Below, piece by piece: positions 16,640 through 52,700 of a DNA stretch of 64,000 nucleotides. The stretch's first letter is position 1. Each line of letters opens with the position of its first letter. The notes under the pieces were generated by a model, which was not told where the DNA came from, did not search any database, and saw only the letters and a program-made list of their open reading frames with translations. The position numbers and the translations under genes were made by a program. The stretch covers positions 440,920-504,919 of the forward strand of contig CAZZBM010000001.1 of NCBI GenBank assembly GCA_964652255.1, given 5' to 3'. This stretch comes from an uncultured bacterium (lineage in GTDB: Bacteria; Bdellovibrionota; Bacteriovoracia; Bacteriovoracales; CAZZBM01).

Positions 16640-17893
16640 ATGATTGATTTAAAACTTTTTTTTCAAGAAGAAGAGCGTTTAAAACCCTTGCTTTTAACTA
16701 GAGGAGTAAGTGAAGAAGATCTTTTGTTATTAAAAGATGTCGTAGAGAAAAAACGTTTGGTGAATAAAAAACTACAAGAACTTCAAGCTGAAATGAATCA
16801 GAAAACAAAAGAGTTAGGGGTTTTAAAAGCAAAAGATCCTGAAGGCTTTCAACAAAGTCAGATAGTTTTAAAAAAATTAAAAGAAGAACTTCAGCTTGCT
16901 GAAAAAGAATTTGAACAATTTTACACTCAAGAGTTAAATCTTGCTCTAAGAATTCCCAATATCCCCTTAGCGGATACCCCTAAAGGATTAGATGAAACTA
17001 ATAATGTTGTTTTAGAGGAAAGAGGTCTTATTCCAACTTTTCATTTTCCGATTAAGGATCATATTGATCTTGGTGAATCTTTAGGGTTGTTAAACTTTGA
17101 ACAATCTAGAAAATTATCTGGAGCTAGATTTTCTGTTCTTTATGGTGATTTAGTAAAACTAGAAAGAATACTCATTCATTTTATGATGGAAGAACATAAG
17201 AAAATGGGGTTTCAAGAAGTCAGTGTCCCTCTTTTAGTCAGAGAGGAAGCTTTGAAAGGAACAGGACAGTTACCAAAATTTAAGGAAGATCTTTTTAAAA
17301 TTGAAAATCATGATTTTTATCTGATTCCAACAGCAGAAGTCCCCTTAACTAATCTTTATCAAGATGAGCACTTGGAGAACTTACCTAAAAGATTTGTTGC
17401 AGCCACTTCTTGCTTTAGAAGTGAAGCGGGAAGCTATGGAAAAGATACTAAGGGTCTTATTCGTCAGCATCAATTTTACAAAGTAGAGCTGATGACTTTT
17501 ACCACACCAGAAAAATCGGAAGAAGAATTTAATCTCATTTTAAATAGTGCTTGTCATATTCTTGATCTTTTAGAATTACCTTATCGTTTAGTGAGACTTT
17601 GTACAGGGGATTTAGGCTTTTCTTCAGCTAAAACTATTGATTTAGAAGTTTATCTTCCTTCTCAAAAAACTTACAGAGAAATTTCATCGGTTTCTTTATT
17701 TACGGATTTTCAAGCTAGAAGAATGAATACAAGAGTGAAAGAAGGTGGATTTGTCTATACTCTCAATGGGTCAGGGTTAGCAGTGGGAAGAACTCTCTTG
17801 GCTATCTTAGAAAATTATCAATTAGAAGATGGATCTATTAAAGTTCCCAAGGCGCTTAGGGATCTTATGGGGAAAAAAATTATTACTTTCTGA
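16640..17893 (+). CDS. serS: Seryl-tRNA synthetase
   Basis: N-terminal coiled coil plus class II motifs FRSEAGSYGKDTKGLIRQHQFYKVE and NGSGLAVGRTLLAILENY. Confidence 0.95.
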   Translation: MIDLKLFFQEEERLKPLLLTRGVSEEDLLLLKDVVEKKRLVNKKLQELQAEMNQKTKELGVLKAKDPEGFQQSQIVLKKLKEELQLAEKEFEQFYTQELNLALRIPNIPLADTPKGLDETNNVVLEERGLIPTFHFPIKDHIDLGESLGLLNFEQSRKLSGARFSVLYGDLVKLERILIHFMMEEHKKMGFQEVSVPLLVREEALKGTGQLPKFKEDLFKIENHDFYLIPTAEVPLTNLYQDEHLENLPKRFVAATSCFRSEAGSYGKDTKGLIRQHQFYKVELMTFTTPEKSEEEFNLILNSACHILDLLELPYRLVRLCTGDLGFSSAKTIDLEVYLPSQKTYREISSVSLFTDFQARRMNTRVKEGGFVYTLNGSGLAVGRTLLAILENYQLEDGSIKVPKALRDLMGKKIITF

Positions 17894-18131: not shown

Positions 18132-18222
18132 GGAAGACTGGTCGAGTGGTTTAAGGCAGCAGTTTTGAAAACTGTCGTAGGTGATGAGCCTACCGGGGGT
18201 TCGAATCCCTCGTCTTCCGCCA
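18132..18222 (+). tRNA. tRNA-Ser (anticodon UGA), CCA encoded
   Basis: Manual cloverleaf fold. The acceptor stem is GGAAGAC/GTCTTCC. The anticodon stem GCAGT/ACTGT carries the loop TTTGAAA. There is a long variable arm, a T-arm with GGTTCGAATCC, and GCCA at the 3' end. Confidence 0.9.
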
Positions 18223-18286
18223 ACAATAAAATTCTCTCTTTTGTGCAAGCTTTTGCTTGATCTTTAAAAACAAGATATTATCAAGT

Positions 18287-19216
18287 ATGGCTTGGTTTTT
18301 GTTTCTTGTTCTTGTTCTAACTTTATTGATTCTTGATCTTGGTTTTTTTCATAAAAAAAATAAAATCATTGGCTTTAAAGAAAGTTTATGGATGAGTTGC
18401 TTTTATGTTTTTATTGCTATTATTTTTGGTTTTTGGGTTTGGTATTTAAAAGGACTAGATGCTTTTGCTCAGTATCTTACTGGTTTTCTTGTAGAAAAAT
18501 CACTAGCCTTAGATAATATTTTCTTAATTTCACTTATATTCTCTGCTCTTTCTATTCCTCTTAAGTATCAACATAGAGTTCTTTTCTGGGGGATTCTAGG
18601 AGTTATTGTTTTAAGGGCTATAATGATTGCTCTAGGTGTTCAAATACTTACTCATTTTGAATGGATTCTTTATTTATTTGCTGCATTTATGATTTTTACG
18701 GGAATAAAGATGTTTTTTGTTTCTCATAAGCCTGTGGATATCTCAAAAAATTTTTTACTCATTCAAATGAAAAAATACTTAAACTTAACAACTCAGTTTC
18801 ATGAAGAAAAATTTTTTATTCTTAAAAAAGACCCTAAGTCTCAAGGAAAAAAAATTTTTTTTACTCCTTTATTCATTGCTTTAATTATGGTTGAGTTTGT
18901 TGATTTAATTTTTGCCGTGGATAGTATTCCAGCTATCTTTTCTATTACTCAAGACCCTTATATTGTTTATACAAGTAATATTTTTGCTATTTTAGGTTTA
19001 AGAGCTCTCTATTTTGCTTTGGCTTCTATTATCGATCGTTTTTATTATTTAAAGCATGCCTTGGCTCTGGTGCTTATCTTTATTGGTTCTAAAATTTTCA
19101 TTGCTGATATGTTGAAAATTACAAAAATTCCGCCCATGATTTCTTTATTTATTACCTTATCATTATTAATGATAGGAGTTGTTCTCTCTTTATTTAAAAA
19201 AAGTAAAGCAAAATGA
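18287..19216 (+). CDS. terC: TerC-family membrane protein (Alx/TerC type)
   Basis: Motifs FLVEKSLALDNIFLISLIF and EFVDLIFAVDSIPAIFSIT. I prefer the ATG at 18287 to the TTG at 18257 used in the track. Confidence 0.8.
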   Translation: MAWFLFLVLVLTLLILDLGFFHKKNKIIGFKESLWMSCFYVFIAIIFGFWVWYLKGLDAFAQYLTGFLVEKSLALDNIFLISLIFSALSIPLKYQHRVLFWGILGVIVLRAIMIALGVQILTHFEWILYLFAAFMIFTGIKMFFVSHKPVDISKNFLLIQMKKYLNLTTQFHEEKFFILKKDPKSQGKKIFFTPLFIALIMVEFVDLIFAVDSIPAIFSITQDPYIVYTSNIFAILGLRALYFALASIIDRFYYLKHALALVLIFIGSKIFIADMLKITKIPPMISLFITLSLLMIGVVLSLFKKSKAK

Positions 19217-19760: not shown

Positions 19761-20804
19761 GTGACCACTATAGAGAAAATCTATTTAGATGACATTGATG
19801 ATTTTGATAAAAAAGTAACAATACCTTCGTGGAATGAAATAAAAAGTCTATGGGGAGTCTCTCCTGTTGGACCATTGCATTTAGGGTATGATTCTTTAAT
19901 TGTTCTTCAAAGAAAAATCTTGGAAAAAAACCCAAAAAAGCATTTTATAGTTATAGCAGATATTCACTCAGCTTTATCCCATGGACTTAGTTGGTTAGAT
20001 CTTCGTCAAAGATGCTATTATTATGAATATTATTTAAGAGAAATTAGTTTTTTAAAACATTCTAACTATATTCTTGGTTCTTATTTTCAAACAAGGCCTA
20101 GTTATGTAGAGTCTCTTTATTCTTTATTGGGAAAAGTTTCTTTAAGATCTGTTATGGATACATTACCTGCTTACGTAAAAAAAAACAATATAGTCCCAGC
20201 TTCTGTGTCAATTTATTCTCTTATGCAATGCTTAGATGTTTTTTATTTAGAAACAAATTTTATAGTTGCAGATCGTGGTCAAGAAAAAATTTATGATTTA
20301 ATTTATGAATTTTATGATTGCAATGTTTTAAGGTTTGGAACAGAAACGAACTTAAAAGAACCCGAAAAAAAAATTACTTTTCTTTACATTCCCATTGCTT
20401 CTGACATTAAAGGGAGATCTTTAAAAGAAAGTTCCTCAGAAACAAGAACTTCTATTCATGACAGTAAAGATACTTTAGAAAAAAAAATCGATCATATGTA
20501 TGCTCCTCCTTATAATCAAATGATTTGTAAAGAAAAAATCAATGCTTGTTTAGAATTCTTTAAATATTCTGTTTTTCCTTGGATCGATGAAAAAATAAAA
20601 ATAGTGAATCAAAATGGTGTTGAGTTTTTATTTGAAAACTATAGAGAATTAGAAAAATGTTTTTATGAAGGTTTTTTATTTCCAAATGATTTAAAGAAAT
20701 CTTTAAAAGATTACTTATGGAAAAGATTGCAATTTATTCAAAACAGTCTTCAACAAGGGATCGATTTTTGGGTGGATAAAAAAAGGTTGAATAAAAATGA
20801 TTAA
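19761..20804 (+). CDS. Class Ic aminoacyl-tRNA synthetase-like protein A (archaeal/eukaryotic-type TyrRS-like, full length, degenerate KMSKS)
   Basis: GTG start, 347 aa. Aligned by eye to the recalled M. jannaschii TyrRS: GVSPVGPLHLGY (HIGH region), FIVIADIHSAL, YSLMQCLDVFYL, ADRGQEKI, LKESSS (in place of KMSSS). A C-terminal domain is present (YRELEKCF...LFPNDLKKSL). Confidence 0.7.
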   Translation: MTTIEKIYLDDIDDFDKKVTIPSWNEIKSLWGVSPVGPLHLGYDSLIVLQRKILEKNPKKHFIVIADIHSALSHGLSWLDLRQRCYYYEYYLREISFLKHSNYILGSYFQTRPSYVESLYSLLGKVSLRSVMDTLPAYVKKNNIVPASVSIYSLMQCLDVFYLETNFIVADRGQEKIYDLIYEFYDCNVLRFGTETNLKEPEKKITFLYIPIASDIKGRSLKESSSETRTSIHDSKDTLEKKIDHMYAPPYNQMICKEKINACLEFFKYSVFPWIDEKIKIVNQNGVEFLFENYRELEKCFYEGFLFPNDLKKSLKDYLWKRLQFIQNSLQQGIDFWVDKKRLNKND

Positions 20805-21600
20805 TTTTTTTAAAAAGCTTAAAAATTTAGGTATAAAAATTTCTATACAAAATAAAAATATTAAAAAGGTTTTTTGGGGTGTTGCTCCAACAGGGGATAT
20901 TCATATTGGATATTTGCCTTATATAGCAATTTTAAAAAAATTAAAATCAATGAATTTTGAAATAATGATTTTAATAGCAGATTATCATGGATATCTTGAT
21001 TCAGAAAAAACTCTTTTTTCTCAAATAGAAGAAAGAACTCAGAGATACTATCATTTTTTTAAAAGATTAGGTTTTTCTGATCAAGATATTGTTTTTGCAA
21101 AAGATGAATATTTAAAATCTTCCTACATAAATTCATTGTTTTTGTTTTCAAGATCTTTGAAATTAAATGAATCATTAAAATGTGCAAAAAAAACCTTAAA
21201 AAGTTTTATTAAAAAAAATTTTCATGTATCAGATGTTCTTTATGTTCTTACTCAAGTTTTTGATCTTGAATATTTTCAAGTTGACCTTGTTCTTTCTGGA
21301 ATAGATGAGTCTGGTGTTTATAAATTTGGAATTCCTATAATTGAGAAAAAAAATAAAAAAAAAATAAATACAATTTATTTTCCCATGATCAAAGGAGTTT
21401 TTGAAAAAGAAATGCATTCAAGTGATTGTGATGATAATAAAATTAATATTTTTGAAGATTTTGAAAGTGTTCTTAATAAAATAAAAAAAAACAATAGTTT
21501 AAAAGTTCAAATTAATAAAATTATATTTCCAATGTTTGAAATAAGCAAAAAAAACAAACCAGAAGAAATCGCTCATTCTTTGGTTGGTATTTGGAGCTAA
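20797..21600 (+). CDS. Class Ic aminoacyl-tRNA synthetase-like protein B (TyrRS-like catalytic domain only, no C-terminal domain)
   Basis: 267 aa, overlapping gene A by 8 nt. Motifs are GVAPTGDIHIGY, ILIADYHGYL, YVLTQVFDLEYF, KEMHSS (KMSKS-like) and INIFEDFESVLNKIKK. The protein ends about 35 aa after the last of these. Confidence 0.65.
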   Translation: MINFFKKLKNLGIKISIQNKNIKKVFWGVAPTGDIHIGYLPYIAILKKLKSMNFEIMILIADYHGYLDSEKTLFSQIEERTQRYYHFFKRLGFSDQDIVFAKDEYLKSSYINSLFLFSRSLKLNESLKCAKKTLKSFIKKNFHVSDVLYVLTQVFDLEYFQVDLVLSGIDESGVYKFGIPIIEKKNKKKINTIYFPMIKGVFEKEMHSSDCDDNKINIFEDFESVLNKIKKNNSLKVQINKIIFPMFEISKKNKPEEIAHSLVGIWS

Positions 21601-21604
21601 TTTA

Positions 21605-22678
21605 ATGATTAAAAAATCTAAAAAAATATCTAATGAGTTTTTAAAGATTTTAAATGAGAATAAAGAAATAATTTTTAAAACCTATTCTAAAGAAACTTCT
21701 TATTTGTTAAATGATATTAATTTTTTATGGGAAGATCTTGAAAAATATTTAACTTTTTTTAGTGAATCCTTGAATCAAAAGAAAAAAATATGGAATTTAG
21801 AAAAGAATTTTTATCAAAAATTTGAAAAAAAATGTGAATATCAAAGAGTAAAACATGGAAAAGTTCTACTTGTTTTGCCCTATAATGCAATTATACCCTT
21901 GTTGCCAATTTTTATTCTTTCTTTTTGTATTTTTGGCAATGAACTTATTGTAGCACCCAGTAGAAAATCTTTAAAAACAGTTACTTTGATATATTCTCTT
22001 TTAAAAAAAATATTAGATAAAAATGATTTTAAAGTTTTTATATTTAAAAAAGGTGGAGAAGATGCATTGAAAAGATATATTGATAAAATAGATCTTCTTT
22101 TTTTTCAAGGAAGTTCAAAAAAAAGAGATTTAATTTATGCTCAATGTTTAGAGCATAATACAGATATTATTTATGAAGGAGAAGGGGCTCAGGTTACAGT
22201 TATAGAAGATAATGTTGATGCTGAAAAAATAAAACAATGGCTTTCTTTTTGTCATGGTAAGCTTTGTACAACTCCAAAGATTTTTTTTATAAAAAAAAAT
22301 CTATATAAAAACTTTTTTAAAATAATAAAAAAGAACATTTCTCATATTCAGTTTACTGAGTTTAATCAAAAAAAAATTATAGAAAGTGTGCATTTAGATG
22401 AGGTTTTCATAGGTCCCTTTGAGGATCTTAAAGATCTTGTTTTTTATCTTAAAAGAAGGTATTCTTTTGGGTTGCAAATTTCTGTTTTTTCAAAAAAACC
22501 AAAAATTATAGAAGAATTTTTTTTAAACGAACTAAATATATCAAGAATTACTATTAATATCAATCCTACCTATCAAAATTCTCTTCTACCTTGGGGTGGT
22601 TATAAAAAATCAGGTTATAGTAGGGTCGGTGATTTTTTTGACAAGGCAACAAGAACAGTTATTGTAGAAAAAGTATGA
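21605..22678 (+). CDS. Aldehyde dehydrogenase-superfamily protein, N-terminally short (about 357 aa)
   Basis: GGAG lies 7 nt before the ATG at 21605. ALDH-like blocks are LVLPYNAIIPLLP, GNELIVAPSRKS, YEGEGAQVTVI (Glu), HGKLCTTPKIFFI (Cys), FGLQISVFSKK and LLPWGGYKKSGYSRVG. Confidence 0.6.
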   Translation: MIKKSKKISNEFLKILNENKEIIFKTYSKETSYLLNDINFLWEDLEKYLTFFSESLNQKKKIWNLEKNFYQKFEKKCEYQRVKHGKVLLVLPYNAIIPLLPIFILSFCIFGNELIVAPSRKSLKTVTLIYSLLKKILDKNDFKVFIFKKGGEDALKRYIDKIDLLFFQGSSKKRDLIYAQCLEHNTDIIYEGEGAQVTVIEDNVDAEKIKQWLSFCHGKLCTTPKIFFIKKNLYKNFFKIIKKNISHIQFTEFNQKKIIESVHLDEVFIGPFEDLKDLVFYLKRRYSFGLQISVFSKKPKIIEEFFLNELNISRITININPTYQNSLLPWGGYKKSGYSRVGDFFDKATRTVIVEKV

Positions 22679-23415
22679 ATTTAGAGAAAAAAGTTATTGT
22701 TGTTACAGGTGCTTCTAGTGGAATAGGTCTAGCAATAGCTAAAGAGCTTTCAAAAGATCATATAGTTATTCTTTTGGCTAGAAGAGAGAAAGTTTTAAAA
22801 GAAATAGTTAATGAAATGATTTTAGAAAAAAGAGAAGTTTCTTATCAAGTCACAGATGTTACCAAGATTGAAGAATTAGAGAGGGCTATAAATTTTGTTT
22901 TAGATCGTTATGGTCAAATTGATGTTTTAATTAATAATGCTGGAATTATGCCCCTTTCCTTTTTATCAGAGCAAAAAATTCATGAATGGGATCAAATGAT
23001 TGATACAAATGTTAAAGGCGTTCTTTATGGTATTTCAGTAGTTTTACCTATCATGAGAAAGAAAAAATCTGGACATATTATTTCTATTGCTTCTATTGCG
23101 GGTCATTTGGTGAAGCCAAGTTTAGCAGTTTATAGCGCGACCAAGCATGCTGTCTGCGCCATAATGGAAGGGTTAAGACAAGAGGAAGCTTTAGCAAAAT
23201 CTAACATTAGAGTCACAACTATTTCTCCTGGAGCTATTGGTACAAATTTATTAAGCACAATTACTTCATTGGATTTAAAAAATTCTTTTATAGAATTTTA
23301 TAAAAATTCTATCGATCCAGAAAGAATTGCAAAAATCGTTGCTTTTGTTATTAATCAACCTATAGATACAGCTATAAACGAAATTATTATTAGACCAACT
23401 CTTCAAGAGCCTTAA
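22675..23415 (+). CDS. Classical short-chain dehydrogenase/reductase
   Basis: Motifs VTGASSGIGLAIA (TGxxxGxG), NNAG and YSATKHAV (YxxxK). ATGA overlap with the ALDH-like gene. Confidence 0.85.
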   Translation: MNLEKKVIVVTGASSGIGLAIAKELSKDHIVILLARREKVLKEIVNEMILEKREVSYQVTDVTKIEELERAINFVLDRYGQIDVLINNAGIMPLSFLSEQKIHEWDQMIDTNVKGVLYGISVVLPIMRKKKSGHIISIASIAGHLVKPSLAVYSATKHAVCAIMEGLRQEEALAKSNIRVTTISPGAIGTNLLSTITSLDLKNSFIEFYKNSIDPERIAKIVAFVINQPIDTAINEIIIRPTLQEP

Positions 23416-24040: not shown

Positions 24041-24131
24041 GGAGATGTGGGTGAGTGGTCTAAACCAGCTCCTTGCTAAGGAGTCGAACCCTAACCGGGT
24101 TCCGTGAGTTCGAATCTCACCGTCTCCGCCA
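24041..24131 (+). tRNA. tRNA-Ser (anticodon GCU), CCA encoded
   Basis: Manual fold. The acceptor stem is GGAGATG/CGTCTCC. The anticodon stem GCTCC/GGAGT carries the loop TTGCTAA. There is a long variable arm, a T-arm with GTTCGAATC, and GCCA at the 3' end. Confidence 0.9.
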
Positions 24132-45786: not shown

Positions 45787-46581
45787 ATGCATGTAATCTT
45801 AGATATTGGCTCTGATTCATTTAAAATATACAGCGTTAAAAAACTCTGGTCAGAATCTTTTTTTGCTAAAAAAAATTACCAAGAAGAATATCTTAGCCCT
45901 ATGTTTTTTAAAAAATTATCAGATTTTTTAATAGAACATAAGGTGACTAAAGTAGATTTATTAATTTCTGGTCAAGAGACTTTCATGGGATTTTATCAAG
46001 AAAAAGATCTTATGATTGAAGAACAAGAATTTGAACAGTTTAGTTCTTTTTATCCTTATGTTGATTATCAAATTACAAAGAATCAATGGGGTAAAATTCT
46101 TTATGGATATAATACTCAAATTGTAGAAAAAATAAAATCATTTTTTTCTTCTATGGGTATTAAAATCAATAAAATTGACAATCAATCTTTTTATTTAATT
46201 GAAAACATTAAAAAAGATGAAGAAAATTTTTATTTTATAGATTTTGGACATGAATCTTTAAGGATTTACTTTTTTTATAAAAAAAAATTATTTTTTTATA
46301 AAAAAATTTATTTAGCTGGTCGTCATCTTATTGAAGAGATTCAGAAAAGTATTAATGTTACTTATCAAGAGGGTAAAATTTTAAAAGAAGATGTTGATTT
46401 TTATTCTGATGAACTAAGACATCTTGTAGAAAGTTTTTATACAAAAGTACAAGAGTCTCTTTCTTATTACGTTCAGCCGAATTATAAGGTTTTAATTACT
46501 GGTTCAGAACTAGAAAATAGGTTGTTAAAAAGAAAGCTATCTTCCTATAAGTATCTTGATATGAAAGAGATTTTTTTATGA
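45787..46581 (+). CDS. PilM-like actin-fold protein
   Basis: Motifs ILDIGSDSFKIY and YFIDFGHESLRIYFF...YLAGRHLIEEIQ. Together these resemble the PilM/FtsA phosphate-binding loops. Confidence 0.4.
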   Translation: MHVILDIGSDSFKIYSVKKLWSESFFAKKNYQEEYLSPMFFKKLSDFLIEHKVTKVDLLISGQETFMGFYQEKDLMIEEQEFEQFSSFYPYVDYQITKNQWGKILYGYNTQIVEKIKSFFSSMGIKINKIDNQSFYLIENIKKDEENFYFIDFGHESLRIYFFYKKKLFFYKKIYLAGRHLIEEIQKSINVTYQEGKILKEDVDFYSDELRHLVESFYTKVQESLSYYVQPNYKVLITGSELENRLLKRKLSSYKYLDMKEIFL

Positions 46582-47129
46582 AATTAGAAATTAAGAATTT
46601 AAATTATTACCATAAGCTTTATCAAAAAAATCCAAAATCTAAAATTTTTGCTTCTTTAGCTGAGTGCTATAGGTCAAGAGGGTTAATTGATGAAGCTTTA
46701 AAGATTCTTATGAGTGGAATTCAAGATTATCCTCATTTTACTTATGCTAAAATTATTTTAGCAAGATGCTATCAAGACTTAAAAGAATATTATAAGGCTT
46801 TTGAGTTACTAAAGCCTTATTTAGAAGAAAATACAACAAATTTTGCTTTTTTAAACTTATTTTTAGAGCTTGCTCTTAAGATTCAAGCTTTTTTTGAAGC
46901 TGAAAAAGCTCTTATTTTTTTAAAAAAAATAGATTCTAAGAATAAATTCTTAGAAGAGAAACTTATATTGTTGAAAGAAAAAAATGAAATTAGAACTAAA
47001 AAAGATATAGAAAGCTTTTATATGGCTGAGAATCGAGAATCAAGATATGAAAAGTTAGAGAAATTTTTGAAAAAGTTTTCTGAAAAAACATATAAAAATT
47101 CTTTTGAAAAGCTGTCAAAAAAAATTTAA
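46578..47129 (+). CDS. TPR-repeat protein
   Basis: TPR-like helices AECYRSRGLIDEALKILMSGIQDYPHFTYAKIILARCYQDLKEYYKAFELL. ATGA overlap with the pilM-like gene. Confidence 0.5.
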   Translation: MKLEIKNLNYYHKLYQKNPKSKIFASLAECYRSRGLIDEALKILMSGIQDYPHFTYAKIILARCYQDLKEYYKAFELLKPYLEENTTNFAFLNLFLELALKIQAFFEAEKALIFLKKIDSKNKFLEEKLILLKEKNEIRTKKDIESFYMAENRESRYEKLEKFLKKFSEKTYKNSFEKLSKKI

Positions 47130-49760
47130 AGAAATAAAAAATCGACCTTCTAAAAAAGATTTTTTAAAAGGAACTCCGTAATCTATACTTAAGGATCCAA
47201 TGGGAGTGATATACTTTAAGGTTAAGCCGTAGGAGTGATGATTAATAAACTTTTTATTTAAATAGAAAGAACCTAGATCATAAAAAATCCCAAAAGCTAA
47301 AGACTCTGTTAGGAGATATCTTGGCTCTATTTTAAGATTAAAGATATAATGATCTTTTAAAATCATTTTTGTAATATCAGTTCCTTCTGCTTGATTCAAA
47401 TCAATGAGATCATATCCTCTTGGATCATTAAGATCTCCAAATTTAGCTAATTTTATAATAGGCACTTTTTCATTGCTGTAATTTAGTTGTCTTTTAACAG
47501 AAAAATAATTAGCTATAATAATTTTATCAAAAAAAGAAATATAAGCTTTATTAATATTTTCTATGTTAAAAAAATGGATATTTTTACTGGAAAGAAAAAA
47601 AGAATGAGCATAGCTTGTTTTAAATTCTGATATAAAGCCATTTTTAGGGAAAGATGAATTGTCTCTAAAATCTATGTTAAAAAATGATTCAAGTGAGCCA
47701 ACCTGGATTATTCCATTACTAGTTTCATCTTTGGCATTAAATTGATCAGCATAAATAAAATAATGGCCAAGTCCAATATTAAACTTTCTCAAAAATTTTT
47801 TATTTAAAAAATAAGAAGATTCAAAAAAATAAACATCAAAATAAAATGTTTGTTTTTTAACTAAATTTAAGAAGATGTTATTTTCAATAAATGGGATATC
47901 TTGATCACTAAAATAGCTTAAAGATAATGATCCTTCTGTGAAGTTTTTAATTTCTTTTTTATTAATTTCTCCGTAAGCATCATACTTTTGATTAACAACT
48001 GTTAAAAGAGAAAGAGATCTATTAGAACCTAAAAAACCAGAAAATGTGAAGGAATTTTTTAAATAAAAACCTTCTAAGGTATTAAATCCAAAAGATAAAG
48101 AAAGAACTTTTCTATCACTTTCTTCTACCATAACTTCAATGTCTTCATAATAAAATTTATCATCTTCACTGATTTTTTTGAGAGAAATTTTGACATTTTT
48201 AAAAAGTTTTGAAGTAAGAAGATAATCTTGGAGTGAGTTAATTTTTTCGAAGGTGATTTCTTTATTTTTCTTTAGGTATTTATTAATAGAAGATTCTATG
48301 AAATATTTATTAATATTATTATTTCCAATAATAATATGGTTTTTTTTTATTGATCTTTTTCCTTTTATAATTTGAAAATTTAGAGCAACTTCAGAAGACT
48401 CATTATTGTAAAAAATAAGATTTTCCAAATTAGGATCATTGTTATAGGCATGAAGGTAACCATCTTTTTTTGCATAGTCTAAGAGGTTGCTAGCTTTTAA
48501 TTCTAAATTTAAATAATCAACAGGTTCGTTTTCTTCTAGTTTTTCTTTTTTTAAATACTTTATAAGATCATTGTCAATATTGATTTTTTTTATAATATAT
48601 TGATTCTTTTCTTGAATAAAAACTTCACATTCTTTAATAACTTCATTGGTGCAATAAATGTTTGTTTTAATAAAAGGAATTCCTCTAGATTGGTAGTAAT
48701 CATCAATTTCTTTTTTTAATAATTCTAAAAAATGTTCCTCATAATAATTTCCAGAGATAAGATAAGAATTTGTGATGTTAAGAATTTTATCAATTTCATT
48801 TTCAAAATAATACTTGTTTGTATTTATTTTTTTTGTTCTTGATAAAAATGACTCTAGCTCTTTGCTTGAAATAAATTCATTACCTGTAAAGAATATTTTT
48901 TTTATAAAAGTTTTTTTGTTTAAAATGGCATAAATATTAACAAAATGATATTCATCATTATCAATTGTCTTAATTGAAATATCTGTTTTTTTGAAACCCA
49001 ACTCATTTAAAGATTTTTTAGTTATTTCAATAATTTCATCATCTGTAAGATATTTTCTTTTGTTAATTGTTTTCTCGTTGATTAATTTTATAAAAATATC
49101 TTCTTGAGGATGTTTGTCTATTTTGTAAACAATTTTTTTACCTAAATCTAGGTAAACTTCTAGTAGGTTGTCTTGATAAGAGTAATCAATATAGCTGTTT
49201 AAATATCCTTCTCTTAAAAAATGTTCTCTTAATTCTTTAAAAGTTTTTTCTATTTCTTTGTTATTTTTTGATTTTAAAATAAATTTATTCAAATGAGATT
49301 CAATAAAATTGTAATACTTTCCTTCTGGTATTTTTATTGCTTTAATGATCTCTTTTTTTTCATATGAAATATTTATCTTCAAGAAGCTATTTTCTCTTGT
49401 ATGATTAATAACAAGACCCTGGTAAGAATTTTCAAGAGATTCTAGCTTGATTTGATCAAAAATATTGTTTAAGTCTTTTTCATTGAAAAAATAGTTTTTA
49501 TTAAACTTTAAGAAGTTTTTAAATTCATAAGGTTCAATGATGATTTTTTTGATAGGATCTTCTATGAGACATTCTATTTTGTCTTTGAGAATTTCAATTT
49601 TTTTTACTTCTGAAAAAATATCTGGAATTTTTTCAATATTTTTTTTAAATTCATCAAAAGATTTTGATTCTTTCTTCTTTTTTTCTAAGAACAAAGAAAC
49701 TTCTTTTGATGGTTCTTTGTTACAAGAAAAAAAAAGAGAGGCTATTATTTGAAGGTCCAT
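47115..49760 (-). CDS. Omp85-family outer-membrane protein (BamA/TamA/TamL-like)
   Basis: 881 aa with POTRA-like repeats and a C-terminal beta-barrel ending ...GRFFISLNFF (terminal Phe). The N-terminus MDLQIIASLFFSC has a lipobox-like FSC. Its start overlaps the TamB-like gene by 16 nt. Confidence 0.7.
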   Translation of the reverse strand: MDLQIIASLFFSCNKEPSKEVSLFLEKKKKESKSFDEFKKNIEKIPDIFSEVKKIEILKDKIECLIEDPIKKIIIEPYEFKNFLKFNKNYFFNEKDLNNIFDQIKLESLENSYQGLVINHTRENSFLKINISYEKKEIIKAIKIPEGKYYNFIESHLNKFILKSKNNKEIEKTFKELREHFLREGYLNSYIDYSYQDNLLEVYLDLGKKIVYKIDKHPQEDIFIKLINEKTINKRKYLTDDEIIEITKKSLNELGFKKTDISIKTIDNDEYHFVNIYAILNKKTFIKKIFFTGNEFISSKELESFLSRTKKINTNKYYFENEIDKILNITNSYLISGNYYEEHFLELLKKEIDDYYQSRGIPFIKTNIYCTNEVIKECEVFIQEKNQYIIKKINIDNDLIKYLKKEKLEENEPVDYLNLELKASNLLDYAKKDGYLHAYNNDPNLENLIFYNNESSEVALNFQIIKGKRSIKKNHIIIGNNNINKYFIESSINKYLKKNKEITFEKINSLQDYLLTSKLFKNVKISLKKISEDDKFYYEDIEVMVEESDRKVLSLSFGFNTLEGFYLKNSFTFSGFLGSNRSLSLLTVVNQKYDAYGEINKKEIKNFTEGSLSLSYFSDQDIPFIENNIFLNLVKKQTFYFDVYFFESSYFLNKKFLRKFNIGLGHYFIYADQFNAKDETSNGIIQVGSLESFFNIDFRDNSSFPKNGFISEFKTSYAHSFFLSSKNIHFFNIENINKAYISFFDKIIIANYFSVKRQLNYSNEKVPIIKLAKFGDLNDPRGYDLIDLNQAEGTDITKMILKDHYIFNLKIEPRYLLTESLAFGIFYDLGSFYLNKKFINHHSYGLTLKYITPIGSLSIDYGVPFKKSFLEGRFFISLNFF

Positions 49761-52700
49761 TTGAAATTAAGCCCTCCTCCAATAATATTAAGTTTATTTT
49801 CTTTGTTATCTTCATAAATTTCTTTCTTATTTTCATAAAAGAAGTCTGCTGAAGAATTTTTGTTTAAAATATTTTTTAAGGTTATTTTTTGATCTTCTTT
49901 TTTAGATTCTGTTATTGATTTTTCAAAAACAACTGTTGTTTTTTTTGCTATAATCTTACTTATTTCTATTTTTGTATCGATTGTATTTTTTGAATAAACA
50001 TCAGGATTAATATAGTTTGACTCATTTTCGTTGAACTTAGACGAAAGCCTTATCTTAATATCATGTTTTTTTTTTAAGTTTTTAGAAAATTTCAACTGTT
50101 CAAAAATCATTAATCCCACGGATAGAAATTGACTTTGAACGTTTTCTTTTTTTGATAAATTTTTATTGCTTTCATAGATATGACCAAGAAATATAAGTGA
50201 TAAAATTTCTTCTTGAGTTAAATAAGGCGTAGAGCTAAAGTTTATTTTAAAGTCATTTGTTGTGCCTGTGAGTTTTAAAAAAACAGTGTATTGATTAATT
50301 TCAGAGCTAGCTGTTAAATTAATTGTTGGATCTATTTTTTTTTCTGGTTTTTTAGTGAAAATATTTAAATTTTCTATGTTAAAAATATTGTTATTGATCT
50401 GAATTGTTGAAAGTATTTTATTATTATTATTATTTATATTAATAAAATACAGCGGATCATTTATTTTGTTGGTTATGCTTAGATCTGCATCTAGGGATAA
50501 GTTTAATTTATCATCTAGAATATAAATAGGAGTTTTGTTTTGGATGGCTAAATCCAATTCTATTGGTGAAATATAGTTGTGAGAATCTGGTAAAAATTTT
50601 TGATCTATATTTTTTTTTCTATTCGAAGAGAATAAGTCCATAAGCTCACTTCCAATAAAAGCTTCTTCTAAAAAGATATTTCCTGTAATTTTTTGATTTT
50701 TAATATTATAAAAAGCTTCTCCATTTAGAAAAACAAGACTATCTTGATAGTTTATTTTAATTTTTTTAAGTTCACAATGATTTTTTTCGCAAATTAAAGA
50801 TTTATCTTTAGATTTTAAGTATTTAATAAAAATGTTTTCATCAATGCTGATATCAAAATCCAAGTAATGATCATCAAAAAGCTTAGAAGAAACTTTAAAT
50901 TTATTTGATTTGAAATTTGATTCAAGTTTGCCTTGATGATAATTAGAAAATCCTTTAAGAGGTCCTGAAGCATTGATATAAAAATTACTCAAATCAAAAG
51001 GAATATTTTTTAAGTCAAAATTGTTTTTTATAGATAAATTATCATAAAGATTACCTTTTCCTAAGGTTTGTAATGAGCCTAAGGATCCATCTAAGTTAAT
51101 GTTCCATTCTGCCATATTGTTAAGTATTTTAAGCTGAGTTGGTTCTTTTAAAGATAGTTCGTATTCTTTGCCAAAAGAAATAAATATATTTTTAAAATTT
51201 AAATTTAAAGATAAGTTTTCTTTAAATGAGCCTTTGAAGTCTCCATTAAAATTTATTTTTTTCATATTTAAAAAAGGTAAAAACATGTTCAAGTAATCTT
51301 TGTTTTCAATTTTGAAAGATCCTGTGAATTCACTATAGAAATTTTTATCTAAAAATCCTTTTACTAGAAAATTTTCAAGAAAGTTACAATCAAAAGTTGA
51401 CTTACCTCTATCTTCTCTTAGTGTGCAACTTGTTTCAAACGGGAGTGATTTATTGAGCCCTTTTGCCTTAATAGTTCCAGTGATAAGATTTTCCACAGCT
51501 TTTAATTTAAGATTAAAAGAATAATTTAATGGAATGTAACTAGAAAAATTATTTAAAAAATTTGAAGTAATATTTTGACTTTCAATATCAAAAGAAATAT
51601 TTTTTTTATTTAAATTAATTTCAAGATTTCCTGAAATTTTTTGATTATTTTTTAGAAGAGAAAACTTTTCTAGTTTAACTAAATCTTTATAATAAAGCCC
51701 CTCAGCTTGAAGCTCAGTAAAGTAGTTTTTCATAAAAGAAAATTTATGGATACTTCCTAAAAAATCAACTTTAATATCACTAAAAGTATTTTTTATAAAA
51801 ATTTTACCTGTAAAATACCCTGTTGTTTTTTCCAAAAAATTAAAATTATAAATGCTTTTTAAAACAAAAAGGGGAGCTTCGGTACTTTCAGCTGTTAGAT
51901 CAATATTTTCTTTTTCTATGTCTATGTTTCCATTGATTTTGTTTTTAAACTTGAAACTTTCAATAAATGAGTCTTCTATTTTAAGATTTAATTTGTCTAG
52001 GTTTAAAGATAAGTTAAGAGATGTGTCATAAAAGTTAAAATCTAAAAATTGAGTTTTTTTGCTTTTTCCTTTAATTTCAAGATATTTAAATTCTTTTTCT
52101 TTAAAAAAAAGTTCCCCTTCAAAAAATCCTTTTAGATTGAGTTCTTTTAAAAGATTTAAGTCTTCGACATTTAACTTGTGAACTTTTACAGCAATATCAA
52201 GAGGTTCAAGGCTTCCCTTGAAATCAACTTTTTTTTTAGAGTCTTCGATCTCCCCGCTCATGAAAAATTTTTTATTTTTTAATTCAAAGATTCCGTCTTT
52301 CAAAAATGCTTCCTGAATTTGAAGAATATTTTTTTTAAATGAAAGATTGACATCGTTAACTTTGACACTCTGGGTTTGGAAAGAAAAATTATTTTGATCT
52401 ACATAGTTAAACTTTAAATCTCCTGTTGCTAAAAGGGAAAGAGGCTTGGAAACTTCTGGAATTATTTTTAAAAATTTTTTTAGTGAAAAATTACTCGTAG
52501 TAATATTAACTTCACTTGGAAAAATTCTTTTATTAGAGTAGATAACCGTAGGAGAGATTAAAATAGAGGTAATATGATTTTTTTCATTTTTTGTTTGAAT
52601 CTTTTTAAGTAAAATATTGTTTTTTGTTAAATCTATTTCTCCAGATATATTTTTTTCTTCAAAGTAGGGAGAATTAAAATCTTCTAACTCAAATTTAATA

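What the first reader, a model, noticed from the sequence alone, without database searches (positions are those of the whole stretch)
19761..21600. Translationally coupled pair of divergent archaeal/eukaryotic-type TyrRS-like genes: possible split asymmetric pseudo-dimer
Seen in sequence:
- Two adjacent ORFs overlap by 8 nt. Both have the class Ic aaRS catalytic-domain order as I recall it from M. jannaschii TyrRS.
- Protein A (347 aa) has GVSPVGPLHLGY, FIVIADIHSAL, YSLMQCLDVFYL and ADRGQEKI. Its KMSKS loop is degraded to LKESSS. It keeps a roughly 100-aa C-terminal domain.
- Protein B (267 aa) has GVAPTGDIHIGY, ILIADYHGYL, YVLTQVFDLEYF and a better KMSKS-like KEMHSS. It stops about 35 aa after INIFEDFESVLNKIKK, so it lacks the C-terminal (anticodon-binding) domain.
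- In both proteins the fourth residue of the HIGH motif is Tyr.
- The Gln/Asp pair that contacts the tyrosine side chain in TyrRS (MQxxD) is kept in both.

Established knowledge:
- Class Ic synthetases are obligate dimers that bind tRNA across the dimer.
- Bacterial TyrRS is normally the roughly 400-aa bacterial type with an S4-like C-terminus.
- Trypanosomatid TyrRS is a fused asymmetric pseudo-dimer, with one catalytic half and one anticodon-recognising half.

Inference:
- A and B may form an unfused heterodimer with the same division of labour (B catalytic, A tRNA-binding).
- Alternatively, they may be amino-acid-activating enzymes recruited to the downstream reductase genes.
Basis: partly seen in the sequence, partly recalled or inferred. 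Interest (0 to 1): 0.8.

Follow-up and report, generated by a model that had tools for sequence, protein, structure and literature searches.

The report
Two remodelled TyrRS paralogues in reductase operon
The two overlapping genes are real but catalytically remodelled relatives of archaeal/eukaryotic tyrosyl-tRNA synthetase, and they belong to a rare, uncharacterised operon (usually: normal TyrRS + A + B + aldehyde dehydrogenase + short-chain dehydrogenase) found in scattered bacteria and archaea that most likely makes a tyrosine-derived small molecule rather than charging tRNA for translation.

Summary
A (19761-20804) and B (20797-21600) overlap by 8 nt, and both are significant class Ic synthetase homologues whose predicted folds match archaeal/eukaryotic TyrRS.

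They are not ordinary TyrRS. Both score far below the curated TyrRS cut-off (128 and 105 bits against 220). The phenol-binding Tyr (Mj Tyr32) is replaced in every member of both families. The catalytic KMSSS lysine is replaced too: Pro/Ser in A, and an invariant Glu-Met-His in B. B also has an invariant Gln173->Glu.

A and B are two separate, old, conserved families (NJ bootstrap 100 and 94), so they are not decaying duplicates.

In more than 15 independent loci from Bacteroidota, Bdellovibrionales, Acidobacteriota and archaeal-type contigs, they sit in one tightly coupled cassette: canonical TyrRS - A - B - ALDH-like - SDR, sometimes followed by a sulfotransferase, metallophosphoesterase or glycosyltransferase-like gene. 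The window copy is the only one that lacks the canonical TyrRS gene.

A and B can occur without each other, which weakens the obligate split-dimer idea.

Best reading: a specialised-metabolite pathway, with activation of a Tyr-like acid, redox steps through an aldehyde, and further processing by B. The cassette TyrRS would act as Tyr-tRNA supplier or immunity gene. The chemistry is inferred, not shown. I found no published description of this cassette.

The parts
19761..20804 (+). Protein A, 347 aa. Full-length archaeal/eukaryotic-type TyrRS paralogue, with a catalytic domain and a C-terminal anticodon-binding-type domain. HIGH is HLGY. The KMSSS loop is replaced by 'SLKES…TRTSIH'.
   Evidence: - ORF.
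- Pfam PF00579 at 51 bits.
- NF006330 at 128 bits against a cut-off of 220.
- AF2 model pLDDT 89.5.
- Foldseek TM 0.77-0.79 to A. fulgidus and Mj TyrRS over the whole chain.
- The 28-member family table gives:
  - Tyr32 -> Leu/Met/Ile/Val/Phe, with no Tyr in any member.
  - Asp68, Gln155, Asp158 and Gln173 are invariant.
  - Lys204 -> Pro in 22/28, Ser in the window copy, and never Lys.
  - Arg132 -> Asp/Glu/Asn.
  - Asp286 kept in 20/28 and Lys288 in 28/28.
20797..21600 (+). Protein B, 267 aa. TyrRS-like catalytic domain with a remodelled active site and a truncated C-terminal region, only 59 residues after the KMSSS-equivalent. Its start overlaps the end of A by 8 nt.
   Evidence: - ORF.
- Pfam PF00579 at 87.7 bits.
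- NF006330 at 105 bits against a cut-off of 220.
- AF2 model pLDDT 85.3.
- The Foldseek top 50 hits are all TyrRS.
- Family signature in 35 members:
  - Tyr32 -> Leu/Phe.
  - Gln109 -> Tyr.
  - Gln173 -> Glu in 35/35.
  - Arg174/Lys175 -> Ala/Ser and Pro/Gly/Asp.
  - KMS -> E-M-H in 35/35.
  - HIGH His and Gly kept in 35/35, Asp158 in 35/35.
21605..22678 (+). Aldehyde-dehydrogenase-superfamily protein, 357 aa from the ATG at 21605. The ORF opens at a TTG at 21584. It is short at the N-terminus and keeps the catalytic Asn, Glu and Cys.
   Evidence: - Pfam Aldedh, E=1.6e-21.
- An alignment of 9 cassette orthologues shows these motifs invariant: P-x-N, E-G-x-G, C-x-G-x-x-C-[TS]-x-P and LLPWG.
- 36-45% identical to the orthologues of other cassettes.
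- 4 of the 9 orthologues also match Pfam LuxC weakly. The window copy does not.
- Best solved relatives are ordinary oxidising ALDHs.
22675..23415 (+). Classical short-chain dehydrogenase/reductase, 246 aa, overlapping the ALDH gene by 4 nt. It holds the position of the cassette SDR but is not its orthologue.
   Evidence: - Pfam adh_short, E=1.1e-52.
- Only 24-26% identical to the SDRs of the other cassettes. Those are 35-58% identical to one another.

Best explanation
**What it is**
- A and B are two anciently diverged, separately conserved paralogue families of archaeal/eukaryotic-type TyrRS.
- They have been re-tooled for a non-translational job.
- They belong to a compact, horizontally mobile operon whose full form is: canonical TyrRS - A - B - ALDH-like - SDR, with an optional sulfotransferase, metallophosphoesterase or glycosyltransferase-like gene.
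- The window carries a reduced form, A-B-ALDH-SDR, in an AT-rich diderm bacterium.

**Proposed mechanism (inferred, not shown)**
1. A keeps the complete amino-acid and adenylate-binding set except the phenol-binding Tyr and the KMSSS Lys. It binds a tyrosine-like amino acid and activates or holds it as an acyl-adenylate or as the tRNA(Tyr) ester.
2. The ALDH-like enzyme takes the acyl group on its catalytic Cys and, with NAD(P)H, releases the amino aldehyde. This is the LuxE/LuxC or ProB/ProA logic.
3. The SDR reduces the aldehyde to the amino alcohol, a tyrosinol-type compound.
4. B has an active site with two new invariant carboxylates and a His. It processes this product further, by adenylyl or aminoacyl transfer.
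5. Tailoring enzymes then decorate a hydroxyl group.
6. The canonical TyrRS carried by most cassettes either supplies Tyr-tRNA or protects the producer from a TyrRS-directed product.

A and B are not the cell's tyrosyl-tRNA synthetase.
For: **Shown**
1. The synteny recurs.
   - The order gene0-A-B-ALDH-SDR, with overlapping or abutting genes, appears in a metagenome contig and a Bdellovibrionales MAG (L002/L014), an Acidobacteriota MAG (L004), the Dyadobacter sp. 32 chromosome (L008/L012) and an unassigned metagenome contig (L023).
   - It also appears in archaeal-type contigs (L020/L022/L030).
   - L011, L025, L033 and L036 show the same order until the contig ends.
2. Gene0 passes the curated TyrRS cut-offs and A and B do not.
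   - Gene0 scores 272-311 bits against 113.8, or 372-399 bits against 220.
   - It is of bacterial type in bacterial contigs and archaeal type in archaeal-type contigs.
   - A and B both fail the cut-off.
3. The active-site changes are family-wide and invariant, so they reflect selection and not decay. A is monophyletic in 100/100 and B in 94/100 NJ bootstraps.
4. More distant A-like genes sit with an ALDH plus other biosynthetic-type genes. In L009 and L024 these are MFS exporters, aminotransferases, an ATP-grasp ligase, a methyltransferase, a kinase and a sulfotransferase.
5. L038 shows non-homologous replacement.
   - It has a canonical TyrRS and a B-like::sulfotransferase::OTU fusion.
   - A PaaK-like adenylate-forming ligase, a LuxC-family reductase (35 bits against a cut-off of 21) and a divergent Zn-ADH stand where A, ALDH and SDR would be.
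   - This is an acid -> aldehyde -> alcohol module.
6. No PADLOC defence-model hits.
7. aaRS-like enzymes and extra aaRS genes in biosynthetic clusters have precedents in reviews PMC12945691 and PMC9437257.
   - The precedents include SbzA, AcmF and MshC.
   - VlmL is cited from my own knowledge of the valanimycin cluster. One search shows only the valanimycin seryl-tRNA reference.
Against: - No product, substrate or activity is known. Every chemical step is inference.
- The ALDH-like protein keeps the general-base Glu, and its closest solved relatives are ordinary oxidising ALDHs. The redox steps could therefore run alcohol -> aldehyde -> acid instead.
- The window's ALDH has no LuxC match.
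- The window's SDR is not the cassette orthologue.
- A has lost the KMSSS lysine that normally stabilises adenylate formation, so its ability to adenylate is uncertain.
- The window cassette lacks gene0. The genome's own tyrS could not be located because only 64 kb is available and it did not appear among the 120 best hits. A translational role in this particular organism is therefore not formally excluded.
- I could not show that gene0 is a second copy in its hosts. The only hint is that the Dyadobacter protein is a singleton cluster with no close Dyadobacter relatives among the 120 best hits.
Confidence: 0.55

Rival explanations
1. tRNA-dependent variant. The cassette TyrRS makes Tyr-tRNA(Tyr). 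A, with or without B, is a catalytically silenced TyrRS that binds this aminoacyl-tRNA through its retained anticodon-binding domain and presents the ester to the ALDH-like enzyme. That enzyme reduces it to tyrosinal. This would be an aminoacyl-tRNA reductase analogous in logic to glutamyl-tRNA reductase.
For: - A keeps the whole C-terminal domain at very high model confidence.
- A keeps Asp286/Lys288-equivalents at canonical frequencies: D in 20/28 against 26/30, and K in 28/28.
- The A family has a mostly positive net charge.
- A canonical, host-type TyrRS is almost always encoded directly upstream.
- Loss of the KMSSS Lys fits a protein that no longer needs to adenylate.
Against: - A keeps every adenylate and amino-acid-binding residue, including HIGH His, Asp68, Gln173 and Asp158. 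That is unnecessary for a mere adaptor.
- The residue equivalent to the acceptor-stem contact Arg132 is Asp/Glu/Asn in 24/28 members.
- The aromatic Phe261 equivalent is lost.
- The window, L009 and L024 have no cassette TyrRS.
- No ALDH-superfamily aminoacyl-tRNA reductase is known.
Confidence: 0.15
2. Oxidative/ligase variant. The SDR and ALDH oxidise an alcohol through an aldehyde to a carboxylic acid, or otherwise build an acceptor. A and/or B then act as ATP-dependent ligases that join a Tyr-like amino acid to it, as MshC or GluQ-RS do.
For: - The ALDH-like family keeps the Asn/Glu/Cys triad of hydrolytic ALDHs. Its best solved matches are oxidising ALDHs.
- Class III aminotransferase + ALDH in L024 is a classic amine -> aldehyde -> acid pair.
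- aaRS paralogues acting as ligases onto non-tRNA acceptors are well established (PMC9437257).
Against: - In L038 the equivalent position is taken by a PaaK-like ligase, a LuxC-family reductase and a Zn-ADH, which is a reductive module.
- This variant offers no explanation for two different TyrRS-like enzymes plus a canonical TyrRS.
Confidence: 0.15
3. A and B form an unfused asymmetric heterodimer that is a working TyrRS. B's site does the chemistry and A's C-terminal domain holds the anticodon. It would be the organism's only or auxiliary TyrRS.
For: - The two genes are translationally coupled and adjacent in nearly all loci.
- The domains are complementary: A has the C-terminal domain and B does not.
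- Class Ic enzymes bind tRNA across the dimer (established knowledge).
- Loss of acceptor-contact residues in A (Arg132 -> acidic) would be tolerated in such a dimer.
- The window lacks an adjacent canonical TyrRS, and none lies in the 64 kb.
Against: - B, the supposed catalytic half, has Glu for the KMSSS Lys and Glu for Gln173.
- B has lost the Arg174/Lys175 equivalents, and its family is mostly acidic.
- Both proteins lack Tyr32 and score at about half the curated TyrRS threshold.
- A canonical TyrRS accompanies the pair in all other loci with visible upstream DNA.
- A and B occur independently.
- The tight coupling extends to the ALDH and SDR genes too, so it is not specific to A-B.
Confidence: 0.07
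4. A and B are decaying duplicates or pseudogene-like remnants without function.
For: - Signature motifs are degraded relative to canonical TyrRS.
- The family is rare and patchily distributed.
Against: - The ORFs are intact.
- A has 31 invariant and 35 nearly invariant columns across 21 sequences that are 31-56% identical to window A.
- The B-specific substitutions are invariant in 35 representatives of 50%-identity clusters.
- The structure models are confident.
- Operon order is conserved across phyla.
Confidence: 0.02
5. An anti-phage defence or other conflict system carried on mobile elements.
For: - The Dyadobacter copy lies among integrase, Toprim and ArdC genes.
- L002 is followed by two reverse-transcriptase genes and DUF4325.
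- The L006 neighbourhood is rich in HEPN/NTase pairs.
Against: - None of the four proteins hits a PADLOC model.
- The window copy sits in an ordinary chromosomal neighbourhood.
- The gene content (redox enzymes, sulfotransferase, MFS exporters in relatives) looks metabolic.
Confidence: 0.04

Closest known systems
Archaeal/eukaryotic-type tyrosyl-tRNA synthetase (M. jannaschii, A. fulgidus, human mini-TyrRS; NCBIfam NF006330)
   Same: - Same fold over the whole chain for A and over the catalytic domain for B.
- The HIGH His/Gly and the tyrosine-pocket residues Tyr151, Gln155 and Asp158 are kept in both. Asp68 is invariant in A but is Asn or Thr in about half of B.
- A keeps the Asp286/Lys288 anticodon-pocket residues.
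   Different: - Both score at about half the curated cut-off.
- The phenol-binding Tyr32 is replaced in all members.
- The KMSSS Lys is replaced: Pro/Ser in A, Glu in B.
- B also has Gln173 -> Glu, Ser206 -> His and Gln109 -> Tyr.
- B has lost Arg174/Lys175 and most of the C-terminal domain.
- The genes are encoded next to redox enzymes, and usually next to a genuine TyrRS.
Double-length TyrRS pseudo-dimer of trypanosomatids (Larson et al. 2011, cited in PMC9437257)
   Same: Two diverged TyrRS-like units encoded together. The units are asymmetric, and only one keeps a full anticodon-binding domain.
   Different: - The units are unfused, and each can occur without the other.
- Neither unit keeps an intact KMSKS lysine, whereas the pseudo-dimer keeps one fully active site.
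- A canonical TyrRS is normally co-encoded.
- The pair is embedded in an operon with ALDH and SDR genes.
aaRS-like enzymes of specialised metabolism (MshC, SbzA, AcmD/AcmF, cyclodipeptide synthases) and cluster-encoded aaRS genes (VlmL SerRS; resistant IleRS/TrpRS copies)
   Same: - Synthetase paralogues recruited into conserved operons with tailoring enzymes and exporters.
- An additional genuine synthetase in the cluster.
   Different: - The 2022 and 2026 reviews read here list no TyrRS-derived member apart from CDPS.
- Unlike CDPS, A and B keep the HIGH motif and hit PF00579 directly. No CDPS appears in the top 50 fold matches.
- Pairing with an ALDH-superfamily enzyme is not a feature of those systems.
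Activate-then-reduce modules: LuxE/LuxC fatty-acid reductase, ProB/ProA, carboxylic acid reductases. Glutamyl-tRNA reductase for the tRNA-ester version.
   Same: - An acid-activating enzyme is encoded next to a Cys-dependent NAD(P)H enzyme of the ALDH superfamily, followed by an alcohol-forming dehydrogenase.
- In L038 a PaaK-like ligase and a true LuxC-family protein occupy these positions.
   Different: - Here the activating enzyme would be a class I synthetase paralogue.
- The ALDH-like protein keeps the hydrolytic-type Glu and is not itself a clear LuxC member.
- The direction of the reaction is untested.

Membership tests
Class Ic aaRS catalytic domain (Pfam PF00579 tRNA-synt_1b) | Significant whole-domain match above the gathering score of 21.1 bits | tested here: met
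   A scores 51 bits over residues 26-318. B scores 87.7 bits over residues 24-238.
Tyrosine--tRNA ligase, archaeal/eukaryotic type (NCBIfam NF006330 equivalog) | Score at or above the curated equivalog cut-off of 220 bits | tested here: not met
   A scores 128.3 bits and B 104.8 bits. The upstream 'gene0' proteins of archaeal-type cassettes score 372-399 bits.
Tyrosine--tRNA ligase | KMSKS/KMSSS loop with its catalytic lysine | tested here: not met
   At the Lys204(Mj) equivalent, A has Pro in 22/28 (Ser in the window copy) and never Lys. B has Glu in 35/35. Canonical sequences have Lys in 29/30.
Tyrosine--tRNA ligase | Tyr32(Mj)/Tyr39(human), which with Asp158 binds the substrate phenol | tested here: not met
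   Canonical sequences have Tyr in 30/30. A has Leu/Met/Ile/Val/Phe and B has Leu/Phe. Asp158 is kept in all.
Tyrosine--tRNA ligase | HIGH motif and amino-acid-binding Tyr151/Gln155/Gln173 | tested here: inconclusive
   A keeps all of them. B keeps HIGH, Tyr151 and Gln155, but Gln173 is Glu in 35/35 and Asp68 is Asn or Thr in about half.
Tyrosine--tRNA ligase | C-terminal anticodon-binding domain with a G34 pocket (Asp286, Lys288, His283, aromatic 261) | tested here: inconclusive
   - In A the domain is present. Asp is kept in 20/28, Lys in 28/28 and His in 13/28, but the aromatic residue is lost.
- In B the domain is truncated: 59 residues after the loop in the window copy, against a family median of 85 and a canonical median of 115.
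Tyrosine--tRNA ligase | ATP-dependent charging of tRNA(Tyr) | not testable with these tools
   This needs ATP-PPi exchange and aminoacylation assays.
Asymmetric TyrRS pseudo-dimer (trypanosomatid type) | Two TyrRS-like units acting as one dimer, one unit with a fully active site | tested here: not met
   - Neither unit has the KMSKS lysine.
- The units occur separately in L039 and L038.
- No fusion was found among the 150 best hits of the B profile.
- Physical dimerisation itself was not testable.
Cyclodipeptide synthases | Loss of ATP-binding motifs, and fold closest to CDPS structures | tested here: not met
   The HIGH His/Gly is invariant in both families. Only PF00579 is hit. All top 50 Foldseek matches are TyrRS.
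aaRS-like enzymes embedded in biosynthetic operons | Conserved co-location with tailoring, redox and export genes across unrelated hosts | tested here: met
   The cassette recurs in more than 15 loci. Variants carry a sulfotransferase, metallophosphoesterase, GT-like gene, MFS exporter, aminotransferases or an ATP-grasp ligase.
LuxC-type acyl reductase (for the neighbouring ALDH-like gene) | Match to Pfam LuxC, plus a catalytic Cys | tested here: inconclusive
   - The catalytic Cys is invariant.
- The window copy has no LuxC hit. 4 of 9 orthologues hit weakly, best E=1e-5.
- The L038 and L009 proteins exceed the LuxC cut-off.
- The general-base Glu is retained.
Cluster-encoded self-resistance or supply synthetase (for 'gene0' of relatives) | A second, functional TyrRS copy in addition to the housekeeping one | tested here: inconclusive
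   - Gene0 passes the TyrRS cut-offs.
- Gene0 is 54-59% identical between cassettes of different phyla.
- The Dyadobacter copy lies on a mobile-element-like segment.
- Whole genomes could not be scanned for the housekeeping copy.
Known anti-phage defence systems (PADLOC-DB v2) | Match to any defence-protein model | tested here: not met
   No hit for A, B, ALDH or SDR at E<=0.01.

The most novel reading that the evidence does not exclude
The cassette is a previously unrecognised way of making an amino aldehyde or amino alcohol from an aminoacyl ester or adenylate.

1. A silenced TyrRS paralogue (A) holds Tyr-tRNA(Tyr), made by the cassette's own TyrRS, or holds Tyr-AMP.
2. An ALDH-superfamily enzyme reduces it. 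If tRNA-dependent, this would be the second kind of aminoacyl-tRNA reductase after GluTR.
3. B, whose active site gains two invariant Glu and a His, converts the tyrosinol-type product into a stable tyrosyl-adenylate mimic that inhibits TyrRS.
4. The co-encoded canonical TyrRS would then be the immunity gene.
Probability: 0.15. Interest if true: 0.9.

Novelty: new variant of a known kind. Interest (0 to 1): 0.7.

Why it matters
- Synthetase paralogues that left translation are a known source of new chemistry (MshC, CDPS, SbzA, AcmF). The reviews I read list no such enzyme derived from full TyrRS.
- This cassette has one genuine TyrRS and two differently remodelled paralogues. It is tightly coupled to an ALDH and an SDR, and it is shared between bacteria and archaeal-type contigs. 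That makes it a compact, directly testable candidate pathway.
- It could reveal any of the following:
  - A new route to amino aldehydes or amino alcohols.
  - A natural TyrRS-directed antimetabolite with its resistance gene.
  - How KMSKS-less class I active sites work.
- It also warns annotators that these genes are mislabelled 'tyrosine--tRNA ligase' in public records.

Tried and rejected
- **Defence system:** PADLOC gave no hits.
- **Regulatory RNA:** Rfam at the gathering threshold finds only the two tRNA-Ser genes. There is no T-box or riboswitch upstream of A or of TerC.
- **Promoter/terminator scan:** not above shuffled expectation, 33 found against 31 expected, with no terminators.
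- **Island boundaries:** no att-like repeats between the two flanking tRNA-Ser genes, only AT-rich chance matches. Codon-position GC is only slightly lower than in neighbouring genes.
- **Canonical tyrS in the window:** tblastn with bacterial TyrRS finds none in the 64 kb.
- **The genome's tyrS elsewhere:**
  - I looked for a hit from the 745,960-bp contig among TyrRS homologues. None was in the best 120.
  - The window genome is not in the species-representative genome collection.
- **A-B fusion proteins:** none among the 150 best hits of the B profile. The long hits are canonical eukaryote-type TyrRS, and P0047 is a B::sulfotransferase::OTU fusion.
- **First NJ tree:** it failed because Kimura distances saturated. 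I repeated it with a gamma-Poisson distance. It is still a crude tree.
- **Literature:** six full-text searches and three papers found no description of this cassette. The library covers open-access papers and bioRxiv only.
- **CDPS membership:** rejected.
- **Heterodimer modelling:** not possible, because the structure tool takes single chains only.

Full report
**1. Observation**

The window has two overlapping ORFs:
- A: 19761-20804 (+, 347 aa, GTG start).
- B: 20797-21600 (+, 267 aa).

They overlap by 8 nt.

Both proteins are significant members of Pfam tRNA-synt_1b: A E=1.7e-13, B E=1.2e-24. Their best NCBIfam model is the archaeal-type TyrRS NF006330, at 128 and 105 bits. TrpRS models score only 22-33 bits. 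Sequence searches of the PDB return M. jannaschii, A. fulgidus, human and yeast TyrRS.

AlphaFold models are confident: A pLDDT 89.5 and pTM 0.89, B pLDDT 85.3 and pTM 0.86. Foldseek puts archaeal/eukaryotic TyrRS first for both. A matches over the full chain including the C-terminal domain (TM 0.77-0.79 to the target). No cyclodipeptide synthase is in the top 50. A and B are only 27% identical over 166 aa.

**2. They are not ordinary TyrRS**

Both proteins fall far below the curated equivalog cut-off of 220 bits.

I aligned 28 A-family and 35 B-family sequences with 30 canonical archaeal/eukaryotic-type TyrRS and read the columns by M. jannaschii (Mj) numbering. Numbering was checked inside the scripts for each residue read, and the Mj sequence was compared by eye with the PDB alignment.

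| Mj position | Canonical (30) | A family (28) | B family (35) |
|---|---|---|---|
| Tyr32 (phenol OH) | Tyr 30/30 | Leu/Met/Ile/Val/Phe, never Tyr | Leu/Phe, never Tyr |
| Lys204 of KMSSS | Lys 29/30 | Pro 22/28 (Ser in window), never Lys | Glu 35/35 |
| Met205 | Met 30/30 | Leu 28/28 | Met 35/35 |
| Ser206 | Ser 30/30 | variable | His 35/35 |
| Gln173 | Gln 29/30 | Gln 28/28 | Glu 35/35 |
| Gln109 | Gln 26/30 | Gln 27/28 | Tyr 33/35 |
| Arg174 | Arg 29/30 | Lys/Arg 21/28 (Glu in window) | Ala/Ser |
| Lys175 | Lys 21/30 | Lys 27/28 | Pro/Gly/Asp |
| Asp68 | Asp 30/30 | Asp 28/28 | Asn or Thr in about half |
| Asp158 | Asp 30/30 | Asp 28/28 | Asp 35/35 |
| Arg132 (reported acceptor-stem contact, from my memory of the 1J1U work) | Arg/Lys/His 30/30 | Asp/Glu/Asn 24/28 | variable |
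| Asp286 | Asp 26/30 | Asp 20/28 | domain truncated |
| Lys288 | Lys 29/30 | Lys 28/28 | domain truncated |

Other points:
- A keeps HIGH His42, His70 and Tyr151 (near-invariant), and Asp68, Gln155, Asp158 and Gln173 (invariant).
- Gln173 is equivalent to Bst Gln195, which contacts the substrate carboxylate in the transition state. That assignment is established knowledge recalled from memory.
- B keeps 59 residues after the KMSSS-equivalent loop. The B-family median is 85 and the canonical median is 115.
- The B family is mostly acidic overall, and the A family is mostly basic.
- Tyr as the fourth HIGH residue is the commonest canonical state, 22/30.

**3. Two conserved families, not decay**

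A has 31 invariant and 35 nearly invariant columns across 21 sequences that are 31-56% identical to window A.

A profile of five B sequences was searched against 1.84 billion cluster representatives. It finds 35 proteins at E<=1e-30. About 33 are short (230-321 aa) and carry the full B signature. Canonical sequences (DQRK, KMS[AS]S) follow after a sharp break.

In a rough NJ tree of the catalytic domain:
- A is monophyletic in 100/100 bootstraps.
- B is monophyletic in 94/100.
- Bacterial-type TyrRS is separate in 100/100.
- A and B are never exclusive sisters, 0/100.

They are therefore two old paralogue lineages of the archaeal/eukaryotic type with remodelled active sites.

**4. Genomic context is the decisive evidence**

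Downstream of B in the window:
- An ALDH-superfamily gene, 21605-22678, with invariant Asn/Glu/Cys.
- An SDR, 22675-23415, overlapping the ALDH gene by 4 nt.

The same order recurs elsewhere, preceded by a further synthetase gene that I call gene0.

| Locus | Source | Arrangement |
|---|---|---|
| L002/L003/L027 | JGI metagenome | gene0-A-B-ALDH-SDR-sulfotransferase |
| L014 | Bdellovibrionales MAG | gene0-A-B-ALDH-SDR-sulfotransferase |
| L004/L005 | Acidobacteriota MAG | gene0-A-B-ALDH-SDR |
| L008/L012 | Dyadobacter sp. 32 chromosome, between integrase/radical-SAM and Toprim/ArdC genes | gene0-A-B-ALDH-GT4-like |
| L023 | unassigned metagenome contig | gene0-A-B-ALDH-SDR |
| L020, L022, L030, L034 | archaeal-type contigs | gene0-A-B-ALDH-SDR-metallophosphoesterase |
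| L011, L025, L033, L036 | closest relatives of the window copy | same order until the contig ends |

Gene junctions are overlaps or gaps of a few bases along most of the cassette, not only between A and B.

Gene0 passes the curated TyrRS cut-offs:
- TIGR00234: 272-311 bits against 113.8.
- NF006330: 372-399 bits against 220.

It keeps Tyr32 and KMS[AK]S-type loops. It is of bacterial type in bacterial contigs and of archaeal type in archaeal-type contigs. Gene0 of cassettes from different phyla is 54-59% identical. It belongs to an ordinary, widespread TyrRS type.

The window, and its twin contig L001, is the only cassette with visible upstream DNA that lacks gene0. TspO and TerC lie there instead. 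No bacterial TyrRS is found in the 64 kb.

**5. Module structure**

A and B are separable:
- L039 has the closest A (57% identity) and reads gene0-A-ALDH with no B.
- L006/L013, from a Bathyarchaeota MAG, has a lone A.
- L009 has an A-like gene with the cassette-type SDR and an ALDH. It also carries an MFS exporter, sulfotransferase, ATP-grasp ligase and aminotransferase.
- L024 has an A-like gene with an ALDH. It also carries an MFS exporter, flavoprotein, methyltransferase, kinase and class III aminotransferase.
- L038 has gene0 plus a B-like::sulfotransferase::OTU fusion (P0047) and no A.
  - A PaaK-like adenylate-forming ligase, a LuxC-family reductase (35 bits against a cut-off of 21) and a divergent Zn-ADH take the places of A, ALDH and SDR.
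- L037 has a sulfotransferase directly upstream of a B-like gene.

I read this as two modules that mostly accompany a TyrRS gene:
- Module 1: A or a ligase, an ALDH-superfamily Cys enzyme, and an alcohol dehydrogenase.
- Module 2: B, sometimes with a sulfotransferase.

The window's SDR is not the orthologue of the cassette SDR. It is 24-26% identical to them, against 35-58% among the cassette SDRs.

**6. Mechanism (inference)**

The replacement seen in L038 and the exporter and tailoring genes in relatives point to a small-molecule pathway.

Most likely route:
1. A binds and activates a Tyr-like amino acid.
2. The ALDH-like enzyme forms a thioester and reduces it to the amino aldehyde.
3. The SDR makes the amino alcohol.
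4. B, whose pocket still has the Tyr151/Gln155/Asp158 frame but carries Glu where the carboxylate-contacting Gln and the catalytic Lys used to be, acts on that reduced product.
5. The cassette TyrRS supplies Tyr-tRNA or confers immunity.

Tyrosinol and tyrosinyl-adenylate are classical TyrRS inhibitors (established knowledge; compare PDB 1q11). This makes the immunity reading attractive but unproven.

Points against this route:
- The ALDH-like family keeps the general-base Glu and resembles oxidising ALDHs.
- The window copy has no LuxC match.
- A lacks the KMSSS Lys.

The tRNA-dependent variant draws support from the conserved C-terminal domain of A and from gene0.

The oxidative/ligase variant draws support from the ALDH catalytic triad.

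The split-TyrRS idea is weak for the reasons given in sections 2, 4 and 5, but it is not formally excluded for this genome.

**7. What is known**

The 2022 review of aaRS duplications lists only TyrZ and the fused double TyrRS for the TyrRS family, with CDPS as a distant derivative. The 2026 review of aa-tRNA-dependent biosynthetic enzymes lists SbzA (class I-like), AcmF (class II-like), CDPS, GNAT-fold enzymes and PEARLs. Aravind and colleagues (2010) described MetRS paralogues and CDPS only. Full-text searches for TyrRS-like paralogues found nothing relevant.

Public records label these proteins 'tyrosine--tRNA ligase' or 'hypothetical protein'.

Within the limits of the library, the cassette appears undescribed. 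It is a new variant of the known theme of synthetase paralogues recruited to metabolism.

**8. Verdict**

The homology and the 'recruited to the reductase genes' alternative hold. The split housekeeping TyrRS does not.
- The finding is interesting (0.7) because of three features:
  - The unusual three-TyrRS-homologue architecture.
  - The invariant active-site remodelling.
  - The spread across both prokaryotic domains.
- Function remains inferred.

Noticed in passing
window 16640-17893, 18132-18222 and 24041-24131: SerRS is followed directly by tRNA-Ser(TGA). A second tRNA-Ser(GCT) closes the block TerC-TspO-A-B-ALDH-SDR-Hsp20. No att-like repeats were found between the two tRNAs, and base composition is only slightly lower for B and ALDH (GC3 0.12-0.13).
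   Followed up: partly
window 18257-19216: A TerC/Alx-family gene scores 365 bits to TIGR03718, whose short name (R_switched_Alx) marks it as a riboswitch-associated subfamily. Rfam at the gathering threshold finds no riboswitch upstream. Only the tRNA-Ser lies there.
   Followed up: partly
window 22675-23415: The SDR that ends the operon is not orthologous to the SDR of the other cassettes. It is 24-26% identical to them, against 35-58% among them. This suggests replacement by a different SDR, or an unrelated neighbour that became coupled.
   Followed up: yes
L038 2739-5207 (protein P0047): An 822-aa fusion of a B-like TyrRS domain, a sulfotransferase and an OTU-like cysteine protease domain. 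It lies next to a canonical TyrRS with an N-terminal extension, a PaaK-like ligase, a LuxC-family reductase, a 507-aa unknown protein and a divergent Zn-ADH.
   Followed up: partly
L002 6323-12375; L008 76-5019 and 11384-13449: Cassettes sit next to mobile or conflict-type genes. In L002 these are DUF4325 plus two reverse transcriptases. In Dyadobacter sp. 32 they are an integrase, HTH, radical SAM, Toprim and ArdC genes.
   Followed up: no
L006/L013 8001-9038 (Bathyarchaeota MAG JAPDIZ010000008.1): A lone A-like gene, 77% identical to A of the archaeal-type cassette L020. It has no B, ALDH or SDR and lies in a region full of HEPN/nucleotidyltransferase pairs, with a small tRNA_edit (YbaK-like) gene about 4 kb away.
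   Followed up: no
proteins P0063, P0073, P0081: Intermediate TyrRS-like proteins that group with B in 75/100 bootstraps. They have Leu/Val/Leu (P0063/P0073/P0081) for Tyr32 and 'GxDE' like B. P0063 and P0073 keep a Lys-Met at the loop (EKMSCS, NKMGAS); P0081 has EEAHSS and no Lys. One has Gln for the HIGH His. They may be evolutionary links between canonical TyrRS and B.
   Followed up: no
window 46000-53500: The lowest-GC stretch of the window (22-24%) holds two very large minus-strand genes. One is an Omp85/TamA-like protein of 880 aa and the other a TamB-like protein of 1234 aa. The rest of the window is ordinary diderm housekeeping: Mfd, UvrA-like, Nuo, FtsA, Bat operon and biotin carboxylase.
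   Followed up: partly
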